From positions 92,628,001 through 92,692,000 of the forward strand of contig OZ024747.1 of NCBI GenBank assembly GCA_964016885.1: DNA of 64,000 bases, read 5' to 3'. Shown here one piece after another: positions 4,414 to 63,951 of the stretch (the first letter of the stretch is position 1; each line of letters opens with the position of its first letter). Made by a program: the position numbers and the translations under genes. Below the pieces are notes generated by a model. It searched no databases and had not been told where the DNA came from. It saw only the letters and a list, made by a program, of their open reading frames with translations. Source of the DNA: Eledone cirrhosa (lineage: Eukaryota).

Positions 4414-5180
4414 CTTACTCTCCTTCTCTACTGGCACGCAGCTGGACAATGATAGCCTGCGCATCGGCGTTTCCCTGAGGCTTGGCCTCCGGATCTGCCA
4501 GCCACACCAATGTCGCTGCGGTTCCACCGTGGACTCTTTCGGCCTCCACCTGCTTTCCCGTCACTACAGTGCCGTCACTACAGTGCTTTCCACACCATGC
4601 TGCTCGCAACGAGATCATAAAGCATGGCTTGGATGCTGCAGGCTTCCCCCTCCCAGCTCGAACCAGCTGGACCGAAGGGACGGCAAAAGGTCACACGGTA
4701 CCACCATGTTCCCGTGCCGCAGTGGTAAACCCCTCGTCTGGGATGCCACATGCAGCGACACATTCTCCAGCGGCAAACTGGTACAGTCTGCAACTAACCC
4801 ATGTTCTGCTGCACTTAGGGCTGAGGAGGGTAAAATCTCCAAGTATCGGTCGCACTCCGGCAGGTTTGCAGTCGAACCCCCACCAGTGGAGACTTCTGGT
4901 GTCCTTGACCCAAGGGCTACCTCCCTATTTACCACCATAGGTGCTGAGCTGGTGAGCTGCTGGTGTGAGCCTCACGAAATGGAATGGCTCTTCCAGTGCA
5001 TTTTCCTTACCATCTTCCGGGGGGGGGGGGGACGCCTTCTCCATTCTGTCCGCCGGGACCATAGGGCGGCCTGCTCGTGGGATCCCATTTGTTCATCATA
5101 GTGAGAGAGGAGGAGGGCAAGGGAGATGGAGGCGATGAACGTGGAAGTTTGGCTCCTCTGTGTTCGGACCTGGTGTACGT
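4414..5180 (+). mobile_element. CRE-clade non-LTR retrotransposon 3' fragment (Zn knuckle plus restriction-like endonuclease), decayed
   Basis: LRLGL..C.PH.CRCG..VD..GLH, DGKR..GTTMFP...GKPLVWDATCSDT, AE..K..KY, VETSG and WLFQ.I.LTI.RG motifs; frameshifted. Confidence 0.8.
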
Positions 5181-7049: not shown

Positions 7050-7117
<68 letters not shown>

Positions 7118-7290
7118 CGTCCTTTCACGCACAAGGCGCCAAGGTACGCATGTATTGTCCAACCAAGTGCCAGTGTGGTTCAATGGCGGGTTAATAAATT
7201 AACGAGCCAGAACAAATATAAACAAGGTTTAGTAAATAATGAAAAAGTTTCAAAATAAATTTTAAAAAATTGACTTTACCTACTATAGTT

Positions 7291-7374
7291 ACCTTTACCG
7301 ATCGGTTTCGAATCCCAAAAATAAAACGTAGGCCATACGGCCTTCGTTGCAAAGAGAGATTCTCGTCAGAAGGT
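7291..7374 (-). ncRNA. Type-I hammerhead ribozyme, GUA site
   Basis: Reverse complement of 8142-8225. Confidence 0.85.
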
Positions 7375-8141
7375 TCTTTTCATTCAAAGAATATAAAATT
7401 CCTGAATTTAAATCACAAACTAGCGCTATCAAAGACTGTTCCTGGGATGAGAGTGGATGATGTAGAACAGGTTTATCAAGGGCCGTAGTAAAGATAGAGG
7501 CAAAAGGAGGTAGGTCAAACTAGCCACCACTGTTATCAGCAGCAGTCGGAATGACCCGGTTTGTTCTCAACGTTTGTGGAGGTAGTAGTAATATGAAATA
7601 CGTCCTTTCACGCACAAGGCGCCAAGGTACGCATGTATTGTCCAACCAAGTGCCAGTGTGGTTCAATGGCGGGTTAATAAATTAACGAGCCAGAACAAAT
7701 ATAAACAAGGTTTAGTAAATAATGAAAAAGTTTCAAAATAAATTTAATAGTAGGTAAAGTCAATTTTTTAAAATTTATTTTGAAACTTTTTCATTATTTA
7801 CTAAACCTTGTTTATATTTGTTCTGGCTCGTTAATTTATTAACCCGCCATTGAACCACACTGGCACTTGGTTGGACAATACATGCGTACCTTGGCGCCTT
7901 GTGCGTGAAAGGACGTATTTCATATTACTACTACCTCCACAAACGTTGAGAACAAACCGGGTCATTCCGACTGCTGCTGATAACAGTGGTGGCTAGTTTG
8001 ACCTACCTCCTTTTGCCTCTATCTTTACTACGGCCCTTGATAAACCTGTTCTACATCATCCACTCTCATCCCAGGAACAGTCTTTGATAGCGCTAGTTTG
8101 TGATTTAAATTCAGGAATTTTATATTCTTTGAATGAAAAGA

Positions 8142-8225
8142 ACCTTCTGACGAGAATCTCTCTTTGCAACGAAGGCCGTATGGCCTACGTTTTATTTTTG
8201 GGATTCGAAACCGATCGGTAAAGGT
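8142..8225 (+). ncRNA. Type-I hammerhead ribozyme, GUA site
   Basis: acctt-CTGACGA(8147-53)-gaatc...gattc-GAAA-ccgatcgg-TA-aaggt. All three stems form; stem/loop III is palindromic. Confidence 0.88.
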
Positions 8226-8292
8226 AACTATAGTAGGTAAAGTCAATTTTTTAAAATTTATTTTGAAACTTTTTCATTATTTACTAAACCTT

Positions 8293-8410
<118 letters not shown>

Positions 8411-9664: not shown

Positions 9665-9667
<3 letters not shown>

Positions 9668-9855
9668 CGAAGGAAATGTGGTAAGGAACCAGGTGGACCA
9701 TAACGCACCAAAGTACTCAATACTTGAGGTAGTAGAGTGGGTAATAGGAACCAGTAAAACCCCGACAGCTGAGCTCAAGCCGTTTCGACGGCTAATTCTG
9801 GACCAGAATTAGCCGTCGAAACGGCTTGAGCTCAGCTGTCGGGGTCTTACTGGTT

Positions 9856-9860
<5 letters not shown>
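9665..9860. mobile_element. Family F fold-back copy
   Basis: Near-perfect palindrome 9744-9860 centred near 9802; flanked by (TA)n. Confidence 0.75.
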
Positions 9861-9899: not shown

Positions 9900-10512
9900 A
9901 ATGGAAGTACAGCATATTCGAAGCTCGAGCCGCAGCTAAGCCGACGAATGCATTCAGAAGTGCAGCCAAGCAATCGACAAGGTATAAAACCTCAGAGTAA
10001 TAACATACAGTTATATATATATGTATAAGTATTTCGTATCTCCAAGGAAATACGCTTTTAGGAAGCCGTAGCTATGCAAACACCGGTGGGCTAACGCCCG
10101 CTGGTGATGTCCAGCAGAAGCAAGGGGGACAACCGTCTATGCATTTCAGGCTTAACTGGCCTTCGTCAGGACGGTCCCTCCCACCGCTTGCGACTGCTGG
10201 ACTAGAAGACAGCCGAGAATATATACATTTCTCGTCTGTGTAAATGAAGTGATTAATCTCATTTGTATATGAAGCTGCATAAGTTGGCTCAACTTATAAT
10301 AAAAAAGAAATAGGATTTCGCTGACGAAGGCCAGTTAAGTCTGAAATGCATAGACGGTTGTCCCCCTTGCTTCTGCTGGACATCACCAGAGGGCGTTAGC
10401 CCACCGGTGTTTGCATAGCTACGGCTTCCTAAAACCGTATTTCCTTGGAGATACGAAATACTTATACATATTGTATAAAGTTATGCTTGAAGCGAAATCC
10501 TATTTCTTTTAT
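9897..10512. mobile_element. HHR-bearing island with about 150-bp inverted arms (10019-10169 / 10321-10470)
   Basis: Arms are reverse complements with a few mismatches; the right arm begins exactly at the CTGACGA core. Confidence 0.8.
10132..10175 (-). ncRNA. Minimal type-I hammerhead ribozyme (44 nt), AUA site
   Basis: Minus strand: accgtc-CTGACGA-aggc cagttaa gcct-GAAA-tgca-TA-gacggt. Confidence 0.85.
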
Positions 10513-10524
10513 ATATATATATGT

Positions 10525-10862
10525 ATAAGAGATATTTAATTTGTTGGAAATCCAACAAATATAGATGTTTACAACTGATTCAAAGCACTCGACAGTTTTC
10601 TGGAGTAAGTATTTAATTGATATTAAATAAATGGAAACTATATTTATAAAACCATATTTATTCTATTATATATATTTCAAGGGTACCAACATTTTTGGTA
10701 CGCTATCATCAGATAAAATACAAAATGTTTTATAAATATTTGACATGACCAAGGATGATATACCTTAACGGTTCAAGTTATCCCTGGAAAGTGATAACTT
10801 GAAATATATATAATAGAATAAATATGGTTTTATAAATATAGTTTCCATTTATTTAATATCAA

Positions 10863-10944: not shown

Positions 10945-10979
<35 letters not shown>

Positions 10980-10983
<4 letters not shown>

Positions 10984-11252
10984 TAAAATAACAGATTAAA
11001 GTTTAAGCAAAGAATCGCTGCTTTCACCCTTAACGGGATCTTCTGAAACTAACAAAGTCAATCTTAACTGGCCTTACAAGAGATTGACTTTGTTAGTTTC
11101 AGAAGATCCCGTTAAGGGTGAAAGCAGCGATTCTTTGCTTAAACTTTAATCTGTTATTTTAATAAATATTTGCTCTACGGTTCTTATATATTTGATATAT
11201 ATTTATCCTTATCAAGCCCTCTTTGGATTTTAGTCTTCAAATTTATTATTAT

Positions 11253-11256
<4 letters not shown>
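10980..11256. repeat. Family E fold-back, about 85-bp arms
   Basis: 10980-11065 and 11078-11165 are reverse complements. Confidence 0.85.
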
Positions 11257-11304
<48 letters not shown>

Positions 11305-22069: not shown

Positions 22070-22281
22070 TACACCAGGTCTGAACTTAAAAGAACCAAAC
22101 TCCCACTGTCACTGCTTCCGCCTCCGTCTCTCCTGCTTTTCCCATATCTCTTACTTTTATGAGCAAAATGGGGTCCCACGCGCTGGTCACACCGTGGCCC
22201 CGGCGGGCAATATAGAGAAGGTGTTTCTCCGGAGGATGGTGAGGGAGACGCGCTGGAAGAGCCATTCCATCTCGCAAGGCT
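22070..22281 (-). mobile_element. CRE-clade 3' end fragment
   Basis: Reverse complement homologous to 4968-5180; 3' end runs into (TA)n. Confidence 0.75.
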
Positions 22282-23436: not shown

Positions 23437-23490
<54 letters not shown>

Positions 23491-23705
23491 GAGGTTATAT
23501 TTAATTTGTTGGGATTCAACAAGCTTAAAACTTTTTATAACTGATATAAAGCACTCAACATCTATATTTATTTATTAAAATAACAGATTAAAGTTTAAGC
23601 AAAGAATCGCTGCATATATATATATATATATATTATGTAGGTATGTAGGTATATATGTATGTTTGCATGTATGTTTATAAAAATATATAAATATCACACA
23701 CACTC

Positions 23706-28159: not shown

Positions 28160-28545
28160 TATTTCTGAACATGATGGAATCACATTCCCATTGTCACGGC
28201 TTCTGTTTCTCTCGCTCTCCCCATCTCTCACTGTTATAAACAAATAGGGGCCCACGTGCTGGATACACCGCGGTCCCCGGCGGACAGAATAGAGAAGGCG
28301 TTTCCACGGAGGATGGTGAGAGAGGCGCATTGGAAGAGCCATTTCAGCTCGCGAGGCACGCACCTGCGGGTAGCCAACTCCGTGCCGGTGGTGGTGAGTA
28401 GGTGAGTGGTCCTAAAGCCAAGGATACCAGAGGTCTCCACTGCTTCGGGCTCGACCGCAAACCTGTCGGAGAGCAACCGATACTGAAGTGGAGCAGAGCC
28501 TGGGTTAGTCGCAGACTGCACCAGGCTGCCGCAGGAGAAAGTCAT
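28160..28545 (-). mobile_element. CRE-clade RLE 3' fragment
   Basis: TFSCGSLVQSATNPGSA...RFAVEPEAVETSGILG...WLFQCASLTILRGNAFSIL. Confidence 0.8.
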
Positions 28546-29754: not shown

Positions 29755-29928
29755 GCCCTTAGACAAAGGCATATATATATATATATATATATATGTAGAA
29801 GTTCTATTTAAATTGTTGGGATACAACAAGCAAATATTTTTATAACTGATATAAAGCACTCAACAAATTATTGGAGTAAAAATACGATATATTAACAAAT
29901 GGAAACTATATTTATAAAACCATATTTA

Positions 29929-29989
29929 TTTCATTATACATATTTCAAGGACACCAAGTTAAATTATGGTGTGTTTTCATCAGATAAAA
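29929..29989 (-). ncRNA. Type-I hammerhead ribozyme, family D
   Basis: Minus strand: ttttat-CTGATGA-aaacacacca...tggtgtcctt-GAAA-tatgta-TA-atgaaa. Confidence 0.7.
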
Positions 29990-30353
29990 TATAATATATA
30001 GATCAGTTTTATAAATAAATAAATATTGACATACCCTTAAAGAATGCGACCATTTCTGTTGGAAGCTCCCGGATAGTGGGGGTTATAAATTTATTTATAC
30101 TATTATGCAAATTAGTGTCGGATATTTTAAAATCCCAGTAGATTTAAAATAAGCTGTTGGGGTATGGAGAAAGGGAAAGAAAAGAAACGGCTTATTTTAA
30201 ATCTACTGGGATTTTAAAATATCCGACACTAATTTGCATAATAGTATAAATAAATTTATAACACCACTATCCGGGAGCTTCCAACAGAAATGGTCGCATT
30301 CTTTAAGGGTATGTCAATATTTATTTATTTATAAAACTGATCTATATATTATA

Positions 30354-30414
30354 TTTTATCTGATGAAAGCACACCATAATTTAACTTGGTGTCCTTGAAA
30401 TATGTATAATGAAA
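30354..30414 (+). ncRNA. Type-I hammerhead ribozyme, family D
   Basis: ttttat-CTGATGA(30360-66)-aagcacacca...tggtgtcctt-GAAA-tatgta-TA-atgaaa, then AATAAA. Confidence 0.72.
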
Positions 30415-30454
30415 TAAATATGGTTTTATAAATATAGTTTCCATTTGTAAATAT

Positions 30455-30509
<55 letters not shown>

Positions 30510-30512
<3 letters not shown>

Positions 30513-30799
30513 GAGGTTATATTTAATTCGTTGGGATTCAACAAGCTTAAACATTTTTATAACTGATTTAAAGCACTCAACAGTTTAGTGGAGTAAATAT
30601 TCAATATATTAATAATTGGAAACTATATTTATAAAACCATAATTATTTTATTATATATATTTCAAGGGCAACCAAGGCAAATTATGGTGCGCTTTCATCA
30701 GATAAAATATTTTATCTGATGAAAGCGCACCATAATTTGCCTTGGTTGCCCTTGAAATATATATAATAAAATAATTATGGTTTTATAAATATAGTTTCC

Positions 30800-30803
<4 letters not shown>
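30510..30803. mobile_element. Family D loop-less palindrome with back-to-back HHRs (minus 30646-30707, plus 30710-30771)
   Basis: Palindrome 30617-30800 centred at 30708/30709 (tcatcagataaaat|attttatctgatga). Confidence 0.85.
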
Positions 30804-30861
<58 letters not shown>

Positions 30862-43475: not shown

Positions 43476-45027
43476 TGTATAAGTGTATATAAATATATAT
43501 ATATAGGGTAGAAAGTGGACGTTTAACAATGATGATACCAGAACTCAACAATCTCAGAACTTTGCCATCTTTGCAATGACGAGATTCTTCAGATAATCAC
43601 AAACTATGACAATTTAATCAACAAAAAATGAATTATTTAGTAGTTGTCATCATAAAATTAGTAAAACTTTCAAGGCAATGTACCAGTTCCCCAAAAAATA
43701 AGGACAATTAATAATTTAAATATATATAAATTTTGCCTAATTGAAGTAATAATTTATTGATATTTATATGTAATGGAATAATTTCATTAAGAATCTTTTT
43801 ATCCCATGCTTTGATTAGGATAGTTCAATATTTAATTTGGCATCAATTAGGATATATACAATAGATTATTTAAGGCTTTTAAAATATCGCTGGACGTGAG
43901 AGAGGAGATTCCCTATAAGTTAAAAATGCTTGTACATTGTGAATGAGTTATCTTCCTTTTGTTTACATTGTCCATAAAAATTTCTTTTTGACTAGCTTGA
44001 AAAAACATATAAAATATGAAATATGGATTAATAAATAATGATTAGACTAACATTAAAAGTAAACTATATATATCAGAATAATTAAATACAGAAGTAAATA
44101 TAACCATTCATTAAATTAAATAAAATTATACAGAGTAAATATAACCACAGTTGGATTCTAAGAAATAAATGAAAATTAAATAACAAAGTTTTCATAAAGC
44201 GAATTTCTAAATTAATTTGGATAATAAATGAGCAAAATATATTATATGTATTGATGGGGATATATGCATGGTATTAGATTTTTTGTGCCTAAAGTAGAAA
44301 CAATTATATTTTAATACATATTTAATAATTATTTAATTAGGCTTTAAAGATTAATTCTTTTAAAGTTGTAGTAAAATATTAATAGAATATCTTACGTTAA
44401 AATTTAAAATTATAATAATCTAGAATGAGCTAAATTAAATTATATAAATTTGTAATTAACTTAAATATTTGATTGCTATAGAAAGTAATCTATACCTAAT
44501 AATTTGGATATAATATAAAAGTATAATTAGCTAAAGCATAATCCAATACAAGTGATATTCATTGATATATGTGAATAGATTTTTGATTTCTTATTTTATC
44601 TAGCATTTGAATACAACGGTTTTTTATTCTCCCCTCTATTTCATATTTTCCTTTTCCTTTTCTTCATTTTTCTTTATTCCCCTTCGTTTTCCCTTTATTC
44701 TCCCCACATCTTCCTTTCTTTTGTTTTTATTCCTCTTTTCTCTTATATCTTTTTTCTTCTTTTATTCATTTATTCTTTTATTCATTTATTCATTTATTTA
44801 TTTATTTATTCATTTATTTATTTATTTATTTGTTTGTTTATTTCTTGCCTTTTCCTCTTCTTTGCACCCCCCCTGTATGTTTCTACCTTGCTCTACGTCC
44901 TTTCCTTCTTTAAGTTTATCATATTATTTGTGGTATAAAAACGTTGAGATTTGGTGAAATAAATCACTGCCAATACCGGAATTAAATAATCAAAACCGTA
45001 GCGGTATATCACATATCAAATCTTATA

Positions 45028-45086
45028 TTTTGTCTGATGAAAACGTACTTAAACACCATTGTACCTTTGAAATATGTATAATAAAA
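45028..45086 (+). ncRNA. Type-I hammerhead ribozyme, diverged family D
   Basis: ttttgt-CTGATGA(45034-40)-aaacgtac...gtaccttt-GAAA-tatgta-TA-ataaaa; followed by a family D tail to about 45260 and (TA)n. Confidence 0.7.
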
Positions 45087-45257
45087 TATATATTTTGATT
45101 ATGTATAATAAAATATGTATTTTGATTATGAGAATATTTTTCATTTATTAACATTTTCAATAATATTAACTACTCCAGGAAAATTTCATGTCGCGTGCTT
45201 CTAATCTATTGTAAAATTGTATTCGTTGATTAATCAACGAACCATATTAATCTTTGG

Positions 45258-47035: not shown

Positions 47036-47061
47036 TATATATATATATATATATATTTATA

Positions 47062-47198
47062 TAACGAAAAAAATGTGGTAAGGAACCAGGTGGACCATAA
47101 CACACCAAAGTACTCAATACTTAGGGTAGTAGAGTGGGTAATAGGAACGAGTTTCGAAACGGCTTCAGCTCAGCCGTCGGGGTCCTACTCGTTCCTAT
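47062..47198. mobile_element. Family F copy with internal inversion
   Basis: Left part matches 9665-9751; right part matches the inverted arm 9816-9860. Confidence 0.7.
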
Positions 47199-47343
47199 AT
47201 ATATATATATGTGTGTTTATATGTATACATATGTATATAAAAATGTATATATATATGTGTGTATATATACACACACACATATATATATATATTTATATAT
47301 ATATGCATGCATATGTATATATATATAATATATATATATATGC

Positions 47344-49771: not shown

Positions 49772-49989
49772 ATGTATATTTATGATATATATTTGCAATA
49801 TATATTTGTGATCATAATGTCATGGATTAAATTCCTGTGCTGGGTTGTGTGTTGTGTTCTGGAACAAAACACTTCATTTCATGTTACTCCAGTTGAAAAT
49901 GAGTACCAGCAATAGCTCATGGTTTAACCCGGCGATAGACTGGCATCCTGTCCAGTGGGAAGTCTTGAACTCTCAGTCACTTAATTGCA

Positions 49990-50345
49990 TGAAACTGGTG
50001 AACGACCAAGCATGGACGTGTTGAGAGAGAAACTGGGTATAAGAGGGATAAGTTGTGGTGTGCAGGAGAGAAGGCTGAGATGGTATGGGCATGTGATGCA
50101 CATGGAGGATGACCGCTGGGTAAAGAAGTGCCAAGTAATCCCAGTAGAAGGAAGATGCAGAAGAGGTAGACCACGTAAAACATGGGTGGAGGTGGTAAGA
50201 GAAAGACCTCAGATCGCTGAAACTCACCGAGGAGATGACGAAGGACCGTGACAAGTGGAGAGATGCTGTGCTGAATAGGACCCGTCCAACCCTTGCAAGC
50301 AGGGAAAAGCGGACGTAACATGATGATGATGATGATTATGATGAT
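49990..50345 (+). mobile_element. RTE-type LINE 3' end with (ATG)n tail
   Basis: LREKLGI..I...VQERRLRWYGHVMHM......K......VEG...RGRPRKTW.EVV. Confidence 0.85.
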
Positions 50346-50653: not shown

Positions 50654-50735
<82 letters not shown>

Positions 50736-50806
50736 TACCACTCAACAGTTTATAGGACTGGAGTATAAATAATATAAAATCAAAAGATGGTTAAAAGAGT
50801 TCCATG

Positions 50807-50877
50807 TATTTTATTATGCGCATTTCAAAAACAAATATCATCATGCGATGATATTTGCGTTCTCATCAGATAAAATA
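50807..50877 (-). ncRNA. Type-I hammerhead ribozyme in the PLE 3' terminal region, AUA site
   Basis: Minus strand: tattttat-CTGATGA-gaacgcaaatatcatc gcat gatgatatttgttttt-GAAA-tgcgca-TA-ataaaata. 8-bp stem I; same strand as the ORF. Confidence 0.88.
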
Positions 50878-51850
50878 GGGAGACATGATATGAAGCTTAA
50901 AAAGCACTTGTGAGCAGTGAAGTGTTAAATCAACATATGAAAAATAAAATAAGATGGATATATGAGATTGGGAAAAAAAAAGGAAAGGAAGGGGGAAGGA
51001 AAAGGTAAGGAAGAGGAAGAAAGAATATAATAAGAAAAAATATATAATAATAAGGAAAGGATGACGGAGGAGGAGTATAAGAAGGAAGGATGAGAGAGGA
51101 GGAGAAAATGAGTGAGAGAGAGAGAGATAACCTTTAATACTGAGAAACACTGTCTCACAGAGAGAAGTTTAAAAAACCGTTGTAAGATAATACATAATTT
51201 TAAAAAATTTAGAAATTAAAAGTTAATGAGGTTTATGAATGGTGATGCTTATGATTAAAGAAAAAGGAATTAAGAATACTATTTATTTAAGGTTTATATA
51301 TTGAAGGGTTTAATGTGCGAAAAGGAATTTATTAAAATGTATTATTAAAATAAAATATATTAAGAAGATAAGGTGAATGAAGATAAGGTTAAATCAATTA
51401 TGAACTTAGAGGAATTAATTATGGTCCAAGTTTGTTTCTATGTATTGTAATAGGAAAAAGTAAATAATAGGTTTAATACGAGCACGGAAGGAGAGAAGAA
51501 AGAAAAAATTCAAGGAAAAAAAATATATAACGTCAAAAAAATATGTTTACAAAATTTAACTAATGGTAATATTAGTATATATTAAAAATAAAAATGTGTA
51601 TGGCCAAGAATATAAGGAAATGCTATAGTGAGTTATAATATGAATTAAGAAGTAATTGAGAAGTAAAAGTTGCAGATTAAAGATTAGAAATTAAAAAAGA
51701 AGAAAAAAGAAGAAAAATAGGGACCGCTAACGACATAGTATGAGTAATATTGTATAATATACTGAAATAAGGTAGAAAGATGGGTATATTTGTAAAAAAT
51801 ATAAACGCTTTTAAGAAAAGAAGATTTTAAACTAATTAGGTAGTAAGATA

Positions 51851-54095
51851 TTAGCTGTATACTTTATGGAAAGTTCTATGGGATTTATGCAAGCAGAGCG
51901 AAAATAAATCCGTACGTCTATTTATTATAGAATTAAAATTAGAGATAATGGTAAATTTCTCCGCTAGGCAGACATTACATGTTCTGGATAGGGAAGAATT
52001 AAGGTAAGGAGAGGCGTTGCAAACCTTCCTCCAAGAAATGTTGTAGTTAATATTTTTGTCCTTTAAGGACCATATGAATTCTGAGAGTGCCGTGTTAGTT
52101 CTTTTAAGTTGGTATTTAAAAGAAGAATTGTGATTATAAAATCTTGCTTTAAAGGAAGTGGAAGTGGAACCAAAATAGGTAAAAGAATTAGTACCAGTTA
52201 TAACCTTACATTCATACACTAAATTTTTATCAAGACATTGGTTACTAAGAGGACATTTAGTTCTAACAGGGTAATTGCAATTACGATTAGAGAAATTACC
52301 AGAGTTATTAACAAGTGACCCAGTATTATTTATAGAAGGAATTGAATTGGAGAAGTTATTTACGATAGGTGCTAAAGTTTCCTGATTTAGATTGGTATTA
52401 TGAACATTCGGCAAAGTTACGTTTGACGTCGTATTTAAATTTACGGAATCTAGCCTAGAGTTAACATTGACGTCGGGTTTACTATTGCTATTATTATGAC
52501 GCTCAGTGTTGGATGGATATAATTTATTACTTAATATTTTATTTTTATGTTTAGAGATAATGTTAGAGATGTTGGAAGTGGTGGAATAAGAGAATTTAAT
52601 TGTATGTTTATTAAAGATCTTACTATAAATACGCGAGGGAGGGAAGCATTTATCTAAGGCCCTAAAAAATAGTTTAGGAATATTACTAATAATAGATAGA
52701 GAAAAAGGAGCGTTGTACCAAATCATATTTTTATATCTAGGTCTTTTCTTTATGTTATTGGAATGCTTATAACTAACTATATTACTATAAGTCCCTCGAT
52801 GATTGGTTTCTTTACTGTATTTAATTTGGTCAGGATAACCGGCTCTGGAAAGCGCATTATTGTAATAATTGGCTTTAGCGTCAAAGATAACTTTATTAGA
52901 AGATAGATTTGAGATTCTTTTTTCAACATTACTGACTATAGAATTGTTAACGTTAATAGAGTGGTTAGATTTAAAATTAACATAATTTAGATTCTCATTG
53001 TTTTTATGGTAAGGGTAATATAGGCTGGTGTCAAGATTAAGGGATATATCCAGGAAGTTAGCTAGTTTGACGTTGTTTTCAAATTCAATTTTTAGGTTAT
53101 GGTGCTTAAATAGATCAAGTATATTATTCTTAATAATATTAAGGTTAACTAAGTTACAGTTTAAGACAGTAAAAAGGGCATCGTCACTATAAATTCCACC
53201 GCGAAGTTGAGGAATTTTCCGATTTAAAGAATTCAAAATAAAGATTCCAATCAAGTCCGTCAATTGCGCTGAATCCGACGAACCCATTGTGATATCAAAA
53301 TTGTTGGAAGTATCAGCTCTAGTCCAATATTCGTTGTTGAATTCCAGGATAGTTTTTCTTGCGGTGAGAATGATCTACAGTTCCTCTGTGGTGATGTCAG
53401 AATATTTAAATGCAAAAGAGAGAGCGTTGTTGAGGAGTGAAGGTGAAATAGAAGAATAGTAACTGGCAATGTCAAACTGAATAAATTGTTGTTTGTTTTT
53501 ATTATTCAGGTCATTGAACCAGTTAATTACATCAGATGTACCAATCCCTAAATTTAAGTTAGAAATAGAGCAATTAGAACGAACCTGTGGGATAATTCTA
53601 TCCAAAATGGATTTACTAACAACCCCCAGATCGGATTTAGAGGGGGCGATTAGTCTAACAGGCAGTTCCGTTCGAAAGTTACTTTTGTGATCCTTAAGAT
53701 TTATCCTCGGAGTTCTTGGGAAAAATGGTTCGGTCTTTTCTCGATGCCAAGTTTAGACATAATCTCAGAAGCTTCCAAGTTTATAGATTCCAGATTCTCA
53801 TGGTTAGTTTTACGATAATTCTTCCTTAGTTCCTTAAGGATAAGGTTATTATATTTATCTTTAGATACACCATATAAATTATTAGTTTTGTCGGAATGGA
53901 CTAAGACTTTTATAGAAGAATTAAGGTCCGAAATCGTATTCCTGAGATTTATAAGGTGCTCCTGTCCTCTATAAGGGTTTCGCTTGAATTTAAGTCCTCT
54001 TATAATATTAACTAATTCTTCCTCAAACTGTGCTAGATTTTTATTGAAAGGAGTATTTCTTCTAGAGTTAAAGAAATGATCAATATTGTTACGTT
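51851..54095 (-). pseudogene. PLE reverse transcriptase / GIY-YIG endonuclease ORF with one frameshift (~53730) and one in-frame TAG (53375-77)
   Basis: LKDHK.NF..ELPVRLIAPSKSDLG..SK.ILD, QFDIASYYSSI, DITMGSSDSAQ, GIYSDDAL. Endonuclease: CPL...C...LVYEC.V...YFGST.TSFKARF.NH, CNVCLAEK, CLH. Confidence 0.9.
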
Positions 54096-54310
54096 CCACA
54101 ACCCCAGTGGACAGAATGGAGAAGGCGTTTCCCCGGAGGATGGTAAGGGGGATGCGCTGGAAGAACCATTCCAACTCGCGAGGCTCACACCTGTGGTTGG
54201 CCAGGTCAGCGCCTATGGTGCTGAGTAGGGAGGTAGCCCTAGGGCCAAGGACACCAGAAGTCTCCACTGCCAAGGCCACGACGGCGAACCTGTCGGAGAG
54301 CGATCGGTAT
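54096..54310 (-). mobile_element. CRE-clade RLE fragment joined to the PLE 5' break
   Basis: LAVETSGVLGPRATSLL.TIG..L....EPRELEWFFQRI.LTILRGNAFSIL. Confidence 0.8.
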
Positions 54311-54629: not shown

Positions 54630-55563
54630 GGTGCTTACAGCCCTCTGGCAGGCGGACCCGGCGATCAGTGGAGACTCCACTTCGTCATTCTATAGAGGGT
54701 TGATCCACAGCAAGTGCGACGACGCGCTCGGTGAAACTCTGGGCGTAGAGGAAGACGAACTGGCCAGTCTGTTCGGTAGGACCTTCCGCCCGGGACCGAT
54801 GGACAACTTCCAAAAGTCCCTGGCCTGGCAGTGCTACCGAGGAGCTCTACCAGTTCGAGACAAGCTCTACAGACATGGGCGCCCGGGCAGGGACCCTTCG
54901 AAAAAGATCTGTCCGAGAGGCGTGCGAGTCGAAGAAACCGTCGCACACGCATTCATACACTGCCCGGGCGTCACCGACCTGTGGGGCTATGTAGAACGAC
55001 TATTGTCGCGAGTGGGACCAATCAGGTTGACCACCGAGTCCATTGTCATGATCAAACCGCCACCCTCCTTCAAAAACGAAGGAGAGGCGGTTTTCCTTTG
55101 TGTGATAGCTATGGCGAAAGAGGTTGTATGGTGGACGAGGTTAAAAGGGCTGAGGTCAGACACCTTTCTCTCCGGCCAACAACTGATTCTTTTTTTCAAA
55201 TACCACCTTAGAAGAAGAATCAGGATGGAGAGAGAGGTGCTGTACCCCAGCAAGTTTTATGAAAGGTGGGTGAAAGTGGCGAGAATGGCCCAAGTGAATG
55301 GGCCTTCTCTCTATATCAGCCTGTAGGTTGAGGAAAAAGAGGAGGAGAGGAAATGGGTACAAACTCTTCGTACTCCTGGAGATGAGGGTTGCACATTTGT
55401 TCGGGGGTATGTGTTACTCATATGTAATTTCTCCCTCTATTGGGGAAAATCGATTAACTTTTAAATTGTATTTGTGATAGTATTTTACACGTTTTTATTG
55501 TATGTAAACTTCCCCCTTTGTATTTGTCCCCTTCTTTTGTGCCCCTGTGGCTAATAAAGAAAC
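54630..55563 (+). mobile_element. L1/Tx1-clade LINE 3' end (zf-RVT domain, open frame 54631-55326, 3' UTR)
   Basis: SLAWQCYRGALPVRDKL......CPR....EETVAHAFIHCP.V..LW; ends AATAAAGAAAC. Confidence 0.8.
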
Positions 55564-62662: not shown

Positions 62663-62735
62663 TTGGTATCCCTGAAATATGTATAATGAAATAAATATGG
62701 TTTTATAAATATAGTTTCCATTTATTTAATATCGT
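62663..62735 (+). mobile_element. Family D fragment (3' half of HHR only) in (TA)n
   Basis: ggtatccctGAAAtatgtaTAatgaaataaatatggttttataaatatagtttcc. Confidence 0.7.
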
Positions 62736-63951
62736 ATATATATATATATATACATACATATATATATATGTGAGTGTGCGTCTTCCATTAATATTATGCC
62801 CTATAGTGTAGTGGCTTGGTAAGCATCAGTGATATATAACATACAAAATAAAGTTGGTTAGCAACAAGAAGGGCATCTGGTCACGCAACTACTGCCTTAA
62901 AAAACCTTTTCAAACCTATGCCTCAGTCTGGGAATTGAACTCACAACCTCACAATTGTAAATCCAACTCTCTAACTACTAAGCCTTTACTGTAACATAAC
63001 TTAAATAAAAGTTCTTATGTAAAATTATATATGAACCCTTTAAAATGGGTGGTTTTATTTCATAGATCCAGAAGAGGTTGGGGTGGATTGATATGAAAAG
63101 GGTTGAATATTAACTATCAGCAACTGCATTAATTTGATCATATTTTCAATTGCATTCTGAAAAATGTATCTGCAATGACTCCATTAAGAAAAATGAAAAC
63201 TTGGTTATACAAATGACAACCAAAGCTGTTTTAATAGAAATGCATCTCCCACATATATTCTAATATAGGAATTTATGGTAACTAATTTCCAAAGTTTTAC
63301 CTTCTACAAATTATATTAAAATAATTAGTATAACAATGATGTGCTTTGTTTGCATAATCCTTTAAAATTTCATTAAATGTTTCTCGAAAAATATCAGAGG
63401 AAAATATTTATTTTCATAAAAATATATTTCTTTAAATAAAAACTTCTAGAAGTTTCTGTGCTTGTAAATTGACAGAAAAAAAAGAGATTATGTGTGAAAC
63501 CATTAATATGGAAATGAATAAAATATATAACAGGGGAAACAAACTAAAAAAACTTGTGAACAAGCTATTTCCTTGGGGTCTGAAGTCTGTCATTTTAAAA
63601 GGTCTGGTATTTTAAAAAATGCATGCAACTAAGAGAAATAGTTATAGAGCTTAAATAGCTAAAATAGTATGGTAGAAACAGAGCAGAGCTCTATAACTTG
63701 ATAAAAGATTTCAAATATTATAACATGATATAACCAACATTAGTTTGTTGTCTTCCTACTTAATTCTAAGTGGTCAAACTCAAATGTGCACCAAAATATT
63801 AAAAAACAAATTGTGAAAGCTAAAAAACAATGTATGTTGTAATACTTTTAATACATTAAATAATTATGACTATTAATGGGAAAATATTCTGAAGCTGAAT
63901 AGTTTGTATAATAATTGAAAATAAATACATTTTTTTGTTTTTTTTTGTTAC

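What the first reader, a model, noticed from the sequence alone, without database searches (positions are those of the whole stretch)
50733..54095. Candidate driver: Naiad-like Penelope element whose 3' end matches HHR family D
Seen: a nearly intact RT/GIY-YIG frame with two lesions, a same-strand HHR about 1 kb downstream, and a 3' end in (TA)n. Its terminus (cactcaacagttta..tggagta; ttttat-CTGATGA...GAAA-N6-TA-ataaaa) resembles family D at 10525, 23488, 29795, 30510, 45028 and 62663. The Naiad assignment rests on remembered motifs (LKDHK, G.Y.DD.L, C..C..EK, C.H) and is an inference. This would link an enzyme to the ribozyme islands.
Basis: partly seen in the sequence, partly recalled or inferred. 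Interest (0 to 1): 0.75.

Follow-up and report, generated by a model that had tools for sequence, protein, structure and literature searches.

The report
Twin hairpins mark Penelope element ends
This is a broken copy of a Hydra-type Penelope retrotransposon, not a Naiad and not the parent of the nearby ribozyme repeats (those are the ends of a sister family), but its family's insertions stop just before two copies of a small predicted RNA hairpin that likely tells the enzyme where to start copying.

Summary
The RT/endonuclease frame with two frame lesions, the minimal hammerhead (50809-50875) and the (TA)n end are real. The interpretation mostly fails. The endonuclease is C-terminal, DKT/CxCx5C/CxxC/CxH and a hammerhead are present: Hydra-clade PLE features, not Naiad. 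This copy (family H1) is dead, 5'-truncated and ~52 nt short at its 3' end; intact H1 relatives exist elsewhere. Family D is only 57-63% identical to its end but 95-99% identical to pLTRs attached to a sister family's own ORF (H2, 48% amino-acid identity). D copies are truncated H2-group elements, not passengers; 89 of 91 inverted arm pairs are within one lineage.

It is a bulged hairpin (RCTC-stem-loop-stem-TY-GAGY) present twice per pLTR, 90-94 nt apart. 147 of 178 H1/H2 genomic 3' ends lie 4-13 nt before one of the two copies. The rule also held for a family not used to derive it and for the short end of an ORF-less 483-bp retrozyme, and the hairpin is visible in 3 of 6 published Hydra consensi. 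It likely positions reverse-transcription starts and explains the PLE 'tail'. Untested biochemically; not found in my literature searches.

The parts
51851..54097 (-). Hydra-type PLE ORF (family H1a): RT then C-terminal GIY-YIG-type endonuclease; lacks first ~54 codons
   Evidence: 79% aa identity to intact 800-aa H1b ORF whose model matches telomerase RT best
53733..53740 (-). Frameshift (1-nt deletion against two other copies)
53375..53377 (-). Premature TAG
   Evidence: a sense codon in 25 of 26 copies counted
51854..52294 (-). Cys linker (CxCx5C in relatives) and endonuclease block with R, H, CxxC..E, N and CxH motifs
   Evidence: compared by eye with Fig. S7 text of PMC8557442; no Pfam hit
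50876..51850 (-). AT/pyrimidine-rich 3' UTR
50809..50875 (-). Minimal type I hammerhead, 13-bp stem II, palindromic stem III, predicted cleavage after 50815
50738..50764 (-).
50658..50733 (.). (TA)n target; this copy stops at an atypical point about 81 nt after the cleavage site
54102..54310 (-). Fragment of an unrelated older dispersed repeat at the 5' truncation junction
   Evidence: 78-83% to three other window copies
29793..30461 (.). Family D: inverted pair of H2b pLTR arms (long end at 29793, short end near 30461)
   Evidence: (196/197 and 107/109 to ORF-linked H2 pLTRs)
30508..30815 (.). Family D: inverted pair of H2a pLTR arms
   Evidence: 191/200 and 102/105 to ORF-linked H2 pLTRs
10531..10794 (-). 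Family D: H2d pLTR
   Evidence: 184/189 to the pLTR that runs into an ORF in L172
23486..23562 (-). Family D: H2a tail only, joined to another family's end
   Evidence: (73/75)
44930..45255 (+). Family D-like end of a further Hydra-type family; hairpin A at 45172
   Evidence: endonuclease C-terminus upstream on the same strand in L289, 1 of 25 loci
62663..62737 (+). Family D: short H2c-like arm, hammerhead core truncated
   Evidence: 72/75
7108..8300 (.). Inverted arms of an ORF-less 483-bp tandem hammerhead unit (retrozyme); short end 7 nt before a covariant hairpin

Best explanation
The locus is a dead, 5'-truncated copy of a Hydra-type Penelope-like retrotransposon (family H1), and family D is the variably truncated 3' pLTR of a sister lineage (H2) that has its own ORF; both lineages likely insert by target-primed reverse transcription into (TA)n, with the protein likely docking on a conserved bulged RNA hairpin and starting cDNA 7-9 nt upstream of it. 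Shown: domain order, lesions, ORF-pLTR linkage, (TA)n flanks, two discrete 3' ends, each just 5' of one of two hairpin copies. Inferred: a read-through pLTR-ORF transcript carries hairpin A (tail) and hairpin B (5' UTR); the endonuclease cuts (TA)n; each cut end primes at one hairpin-defined site, so the ~90-nt 'tail' is the hairpin spacing and head-to-head arms come from priming both ends of one break on RNA of one family. The hammerhead is upstream of both starts and need not have cut the template.
For: Clade motifs; intact-relative model closest to telomerase RT (rank 1-2; Z 14.5, rmsd 4.5, 299 aligned, tied with DGR RT at 14.1). D-to-H2 linkage: 14 of 20 H2 RT loci carry a D-type hammerhead end on the same strand; 13 of 30 loci found with the D-upstream UTR have the endonuclease C-terminus further upstream; D ends run into an ORF start in L107, L145, L172. 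H1 and H2 are separate clades (SH-aLRT 100 each, quick tree) and the terminus tree splits the same way. 89 of 91 head-to-head arm pairs are within one lineage; the 2 others are mapping artefacts on inspection. (TA)n/(CA)n flanks: 26 of 30 H1 and 30 of 30 D loci against a 3.5% background. Hairpin: 22 of 35 sequence-only motif clusters have a 3-bp or longer inner stem against 1.6 expected (max 6 in 2000 shuffles), with many different pair types; 45 of 52 H1 and 102 of 126 H2 ends lie 4-13 nt before hairpin A or B, where about 13% is expected by position alone; other TATA/ATAT patches in the template are not used. Out of sample: 24 of 41 rows of the 45028 family stop 4-6 nt before its hairpin; 30 of 30 copies of the 9668 family have a short arm ending 8 nt before it (copies selected by identity); 13 of 27 ends of the 483-bp retrozyme lie 7 nt before a covariant hairpin. 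A Poseidon PLE starts RT at two internal sites that define the tail, needs RNA 3' of them, and does not need hammerhead cleavage (PMC11167929).
Against: No biochemistry or RNA data. No tree with named Hydra/Naiad references; clade rests on motif comparison by eye, and RWK reads RWI/RWT/RWR here. Pfam and the PDB sequence search did not detect the endonuclease. The 178 ends are not independent tests: they reduce to about five family-by-end coincidences, H1 and H2 are homologous, and queries favoured long ends; 27 further ends were set aside (21 without a microsatellite end, 15 of them read-throughs; 6 poor alignments). Hairpin B has only a 0-2 bp inner stem. The retrozyme's long end is 11-12 nt from a looser hairpin recognised after the fact; the 323-bp retrozyme shows no such motif; Hydra-1_Amil and Hydra-1_Obim consensi do not show it by eye. 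Only 29 of 91 arm pairs could be scored as one long plus one short end; 8 long-long and 3 short-short were also seen, 51 unscored. Only 1 of 20 H2 loci fetched (L153) has a full open frame with intact YRDD, none in the H2a/b/d subfamilies.
Confidence: 0.7

Rival explanations
1. H1 protein mobilises D (H2-group) RNA in trans, because both carry the same hairpin; D islands are then partly H1-driven.
For: Shared hairpin geometry; 7 of 10 H1b loci fetched (chosen for long frames) have full ORFs about 1-1.5% apart, whereas intact H2 ORFs were rare (1 of 20).
Against: H2 has its own ORF attached to D ends; H2a copies are 3-4% diverged, older than H1b; no true H1-H2 chimeric arm pair among 91; the window copy itself is H1a and dead.
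Confidence: 0.12
2. The ends are set by TA-like microhomology between primer and RNA or by endonuclease recognition of the pLTR DNA; the hairpin is conserved for another reason (promoter, translation, DNA cruciform).
For: Every end is followed by 2-5 nt of TA-rich template; 3' extension in D. virilis Penelope was needed for endonuclease recognition of DNA (as summarised in PMC11167929).
Against: Other TATA/ATAT patches at template positions 23, 81, 90, 129 attract no ends; the offset is kept at 7-9 nt across unrelated sequences. The data cannot tell RNA from DNA recognition.
Confidence: 0.15
3. The element is a Naiad.
For: (TA)n preference, and Naiads are listed for Octopus species.
Against: Intact relatives begin at Met about 120 residues before DKT with no endonuclease there; the Cys/endonuclease block is C-terminal; DKT not DKA; motif A to motif B spacing 62 residues, as in Hydra-1_Obim (63), so no IFD; hammerhead present.
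Confidence: 0.02

Closest known systems
Hydra clade of Penelope-like elements (Craig et al. 2021, PMC8557442), e.g. Hydra-1_Obim
   Same: C-terminal endonuclease, DKT, LKDHK, FD..MG..D, YRDD, CxCx5C linker, CxxC and CxH at the C-terminus, canonical-core hammerhead in the 3' end, (TA)n insertion, partial tandems and inverted 5' arms.
   Different: Distinct families (hammerhead sequence unlike Hydra-1_Obim's); longer (3.7-4.3 kb units with 1.0-1.8 kb 3' UTR against <3 kb); RWI/RWT/RWR for RWK; tail about 90 nt, not the 30-40 nt given for PLEs; paired hairpins not mentioned in the text I saw.
Poseidon element of Anolis (PAc; Frangieh et al. 2024, PMC11167929)
   Same: Two internal RT start sites define the genomic tail; AT-rich target; hammerhead cleavage not required; RNA downstream of the start is needed.
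   Different: PAc starts lie inside the ORF in an AC-rich stem-loop and no repeated docking motif was defined; here both starts are upstream of the ATG, each before a copy of one hairpin.
[quoted passage not shown]
   Same: Palindromic stem III, long stem II, most copies solitary and attributed to truncated PLEs.
   Different: None of substance; family D is this known case.
Non-LTR retrozymes as non-autonomous PLE derivatives (bioRxiv 10.64898/2026.07.22.740005; PMC7229834)
   Same: ORF-less tandem hammerhead units exist in this window (483 and 323 bp).
   Different: Family D is not one (it has an ORF-bearing parent); the two true retrozymes share no alignable sequence with H1/H2 ends, only, for the 483-bp unit, hairpin geometry.

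Membership tests
Naiad | N-terminal GIY-YIG endonuclease | tested here: not met
   Intact 800-aa and 742-aa ORFs start at Met, RT fold spans about 116-492, Cys/endonuclease block at 655-800
Naiad | DKA motif | tested here: not met
   DKT in H1 and H2
Naiad | Insertion in fingers domain | tested here: not met
   62 residues between motif A Asp and motif B Gly, 63 in Hydra-1_Obim, counted by eye; some Naiads lack it
Naiad | No canonical hammerhead | tested here: not met
   Full core with stems I-III present
Hydra clade PLE | Telomerase-like RT | tested here: met
   Model of intact relative, pLDDT 81; telomerase entries rank first, weak E-values and near ties with other RTs
Hydra clade PLE | C-terminal GIY-YIG endonuclease with R, H, E, N | tested here: inconclusive
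   Motif block aligns by eye with Fig. S7 labels and folds as a beta-beta-alpha-alpha-beta-alpha domain in the full model, but Pfam gave no hit and the fold searches did not test this part
Hydra clade PLE | DKT motif | tested here: met
Hydra clade PLE | RWK motif | tested here: inconclusive
   RW kept at the same place, third residue I/T (H1) or R (H2); region missing in the window copy
Hydra clade PLE | CxCx5C linker, CxxC and CxH flanking E and N, no CCHH | tested here: met
   second Cys present in 21 of 22 copies, lost in the window copy; absence of CCHH judged by eye
Hydra clade PLE | Hammerhead in pLTR and (TA)n insertion | tested here: met
Hydra clade PLE | Groups with named Hydra RTs in a tree | not tested
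   The tree held only own-genome copies and unnamed homologues
Non-LTR retrozyme (family D) | ORF-less tandem unit with a hammerhead in each repeat | tested here: not met
   D ends continue upstream into a 1.3-1.8 kb UTR and an ORF and downstream into an ORF start
Non-LTR retrozyme (483-bp unit at 7108-8300) | ORF-less tandem unit with a hammerhead in each repeat | tested here: met
   Arrays with 483-bp period on several contigs, longest Met-started frame 44 codons
Non-LTR retrozyme (483-bp unit at 7108-8300) | Self-cleavage and circular RNA | not testable with these tools
   Needs RNA data or an in vitro assay

The most novel reading that the evidence does not exclude
Hydra-clade Penelope elements use a clade-wide, twice-repeated bulged RNA hairpin as the docking signal that fixes both reverse-transcription start sites; its spacing is the PLE tail, a protein dimer on the two hairpins primes both ends of a cut (TA)n and so makes the inverted arms, and ORF-less retrozymes such as the 483-bp unit spread by mimicking the hairpin's shape rather than the pLTR sequence.
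Probability: 0.5. Interest if true: 0.7.

Novelty: new member of a known kind. Interest (0 to 1): 0.48.

Why it matters
As a locus it is ordinary: one dead copy among very many. It corrects two labels (Hydra not Naiad; D is truncated sister-family pLTR). What could matter is the hairpin rule. How PLEs recognise their RNA and why insertions have optional tails and inverted arms is named as open in PMC8557442 (section 15) and only partly answered in PMC11167929. A short, covarying, twice-repeated motif at a fixed distance from both ends gives an exact mutagenesis target, a way to pair orphan retrozymes with a driver clade, and young intact elements (H1b) to test it with; a portable 25-nt docking signal for a (TA)n-targeting RT would also interest gene-insertion work.

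Tried and rejected
Rfam scan: no hammerhead among the 150 best of 363 matches listed; list filled by microsatellite/miRNA matches; hammerheads found with my own descriptor. Pfam on window pieces and intact ORFs and PDB sequence search: nothing informative. Single-sequence model of the endonuclease block failed (pLDDT 35) and was not searched; fold searches with the full model returned only RT-region matches. Homologue search: 18 unnamed proteins, no clade label. Careful tree did not finish; quick tree used. Sequencing runs: no RNA holder listed. Earlier findings: none. Selenoprotein reading rejected: the internal stop is TAG and private to this copy. Idea that inverted arms are often cross-family chimeras rejected for H1 versus H2, though 23486-23610 looks like a two-family join. 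The 323-bp and 483-bp retrozymes gave no blastn match to H1/H2 ends at E 0.1. The binomial tail printed is not used: ends are not independent. Minimum-energy folds of hammerhead dimers did not consistently give the active form.

Full report
Observation. Six-frame translation shows an RT-like frame on the minus strand in three pieces. Against an intact relative from the same genome it covers residues 55-800 at 79% identity, with a frameshift near 53735 and a TAG at 53377-53375. It also has YSDD where 20 of 25 copies read YRDD and has lost a linker Cys kept in 21 of 22 copies. The 5' end is cut at 54097 and abuts a piece of an unrelated repeat. A minimal type I hammerhead lies at 50875-50809, then 81 nt to (TA)n.

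Family. A search of the own genome (3.0 Gb; host not named, probably a cephalopod by inference only) gave 150 scored matches at 87-100% among 31,281 candidates. Of 10 loci picked for long frames, 7 hold a full ORF of about 800 residues from Met to stop, with pLTRs and hammerheads; four compared are 1-1.5% apart. A model of one (pLDDT 81) matches telomerase RT first. Craig et al. (PMC8557442; I read the abstract, sections 5, 6, 11, 12, 15, term passages, supplement parts 1, 2, 52, 53 and two supplement searches) define Naiads by an N-terminal endonuclease, DKA, IFD and no canonical hammerhead, and Hydra by a C-terminal endonuclease, DKT, RWK, CxCx5C, CxxC, CxH, a hammerhead and (TA)n targets. 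The alignment meets the Hydra list except that RWK reads RWI/RWT/RWR, and fails the Naiad list. The endonuclease call rests on motifs read by eye; Pfam found nothing. No tree with named references was made.

Family D. The D ends extend upstream as variably truncated, often inverted arms. Following that sequence led to a 1.3-1.8 kb UTR and an ORF: 13 of 30 loci have an endonuclease C-terminus upstream on the same strand. In the other direction, 14 of 20 loci found with that ORF carry a D-type end (12 downstream, 7 just before the ATG). This lineage (H2) is 48% identical to H1 in protein; H1 and H2 are separate, sister clades in a quick tree and the terminus tree agrees. Window D copies match ORF-linked H2 ends at 196/197 (29795), 191/200 (30510), 73/75 (23488), 72/75 (62663) and 184/189 (10525), against 57-63% for the window terminus. 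The 45028 copy belongs to a further family, ORF-linked in 1 of 25 loci. Of 91 distinct head-to-head arm pairs (99 before removing duplicates) 89 are within one lineage and 2 are artefacts. So D is the known case of solitary hammerheads from truncated PLEs (PMC4209133, parts 1-2 of 4 read), not a passenger of this element. Against this reading: only 1 of 20 H2 loci has a full frame with intact YRDD, so recent trans use of H1 protein is not excluded.

Target. 26 of 30 H1 loci end in (TA)n or (CA)n (2 read through, 1 other, 1 the window copy) and 30 of 30 D loci in (TA)n; background is 3.5%.

The shared motif. Both lineages have two discrete 3' ends, about 45-55 and 135-145 nt after the hammerhead cleavage site. 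A sequence-only search of the fetched loci gave 221 hits in 35 clusters; 22 have an inner stem of 3 bp or more, against 1.6 in shuffles (max 6 of 2000), with differing pairs between families. Each H1/H2 pLTR has two copies 90-94 nt apart, A in the tail and B (weaker inner stem) before the ATG. 45 of 52 H1 ends and 102 of 126 H2 ends start their microsatellite 4-13 nt before A or B, modes 7 and 9; 27 further ends were set aside (21 without such an end, 6 poorly aligned); other TATA patches are not used. These counts reduce to a handful of independent coincidences, so I looked outside H1/H2. In the 45028 family, searched after the rule was set, 24 of 41 rows stop 4-6 nt before its hairpin, 11 at the long end and 6 at a duplication private to the query. 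The 9668 family's short arm ends 8 nt before it in 30 of 30 near-identical copies. The ORF-less 483-bp retrozyme has 13 of 27 ends 7 nt before a hairpin of the same shape with a changed outer stem, and 11 ends 11-12 nt before a looser one; the 323-bp retrozyme shows no such motif. By eye the hairpin is in 3 of the 6 Hydra consensi in the supplement (Hydra-2_Amil, Hydra-2_Ajap, twice in Hydra-1_Ajap), partly in Hydra-1_Crog, not in Hydra-1_Amil or Hydra-1_Obim; of 27 half-motif hits in the supplement the 4 in Hydra files carry the hairpin and the 23 in Naiad/Chlamys files do not (by eye).

Mechanism. Shown in a Poseidon PLE: RT starts at two internal sites that bound the tail, needs RNA 3' of them, cuts AT-rich DNA on both strands, may be a dimer, and does not need hammerhead cleavage (PMC11167929, parts 1-2 of 4 read). 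Inferred here: the hairpin is the docking signal, starts fall 7-9 nt 5' of it, the tail is the hairpin spacing, and priming at both ends of a cut (TA)n makes the inverted arms. The arm data fit only partly: 29 long-short, 8 long-long, 3 short-short, 51 unscored. DNA-level recognition or microhomology are the rivals.

Novelty. The element, the hammerhead, the (TA)n bias, and the PLE origin of retrozymes (bioRxiv 10.64898/2026.07.22.740005, parts 1-3 of 5 read; PMC7229834, passages) are known. I found no description of the paired hairpin in seven library searches, in the text of PMC8557442 ('hairpin' and 'stem-loop' 0 occurrences) or in passages of an Octopus repeat paper (PMC13282606); subscription papers and figure images were not seen.

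Verdict.

Noticed in passing
window 7108-8300: Very young ORF-less 483-bp hammerhead unit: 40 full-length best matches at 100% (rounded), in tandem arrays on several contigs; a candidate active retrozyme whose driver is unidentified.
   Followed up: partly
window 10011-10478: Second ORF-less hammerhead unit, 323-bp period (tandem in L217), copies 94-97% identical, two ends about 42-47 nt apart, no Hydra-type hairpin; probably driven by another PLE clade.
   Followed up: partly
window 9667-9858 and 47040-47200: About 192-bp palindromic element with hairpin A; the 30 best copies share the same inversion junction, unusual for independent events; other copies vary and a longer upstream UTR exists. 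No ORF link found.
   Followed up: partly
window 23486-23610: H2a tail joined head-to-head, without (TA)n, to the end of another family (the one at 10950-11300): a possible two-family insertion.
   Followed up: no
window 6656 (-), 31127 (+): Further hammerhead-like cores of other families (31127 has a changed core base); parents not sought.
   Followed up: no
L103:6321-8238, L036:1845-3026, L089, L289:2302-3009: At least two more distant Hydra-type ORF lineages (about 40-50% to H1), so the genome holds many such families, often nested in each other's (TA)n.
   Followed up: partly
L105, L063: Four arm pairs (two after removing duplicates) scored as H1a with H1b; short arms, could be real subfamily mixing.
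   Followed up: no
window 54102-54310, 4844-5057, 22198-22281, 28275-28482: Dispersed repeat whose minus-strand translation recalls the C-terminal nuclease region of CRE-type LINEs (recalled, not tested).
   Followed up: no
window 54631-55323 (+), 49985-50320 (+): LINE 3' fragments: a 231-aa frame with a weak zf-RVT hit (E 2e-4) and an RTE-like tail ending in (ATG)n (recalled label).
   Followed up: no
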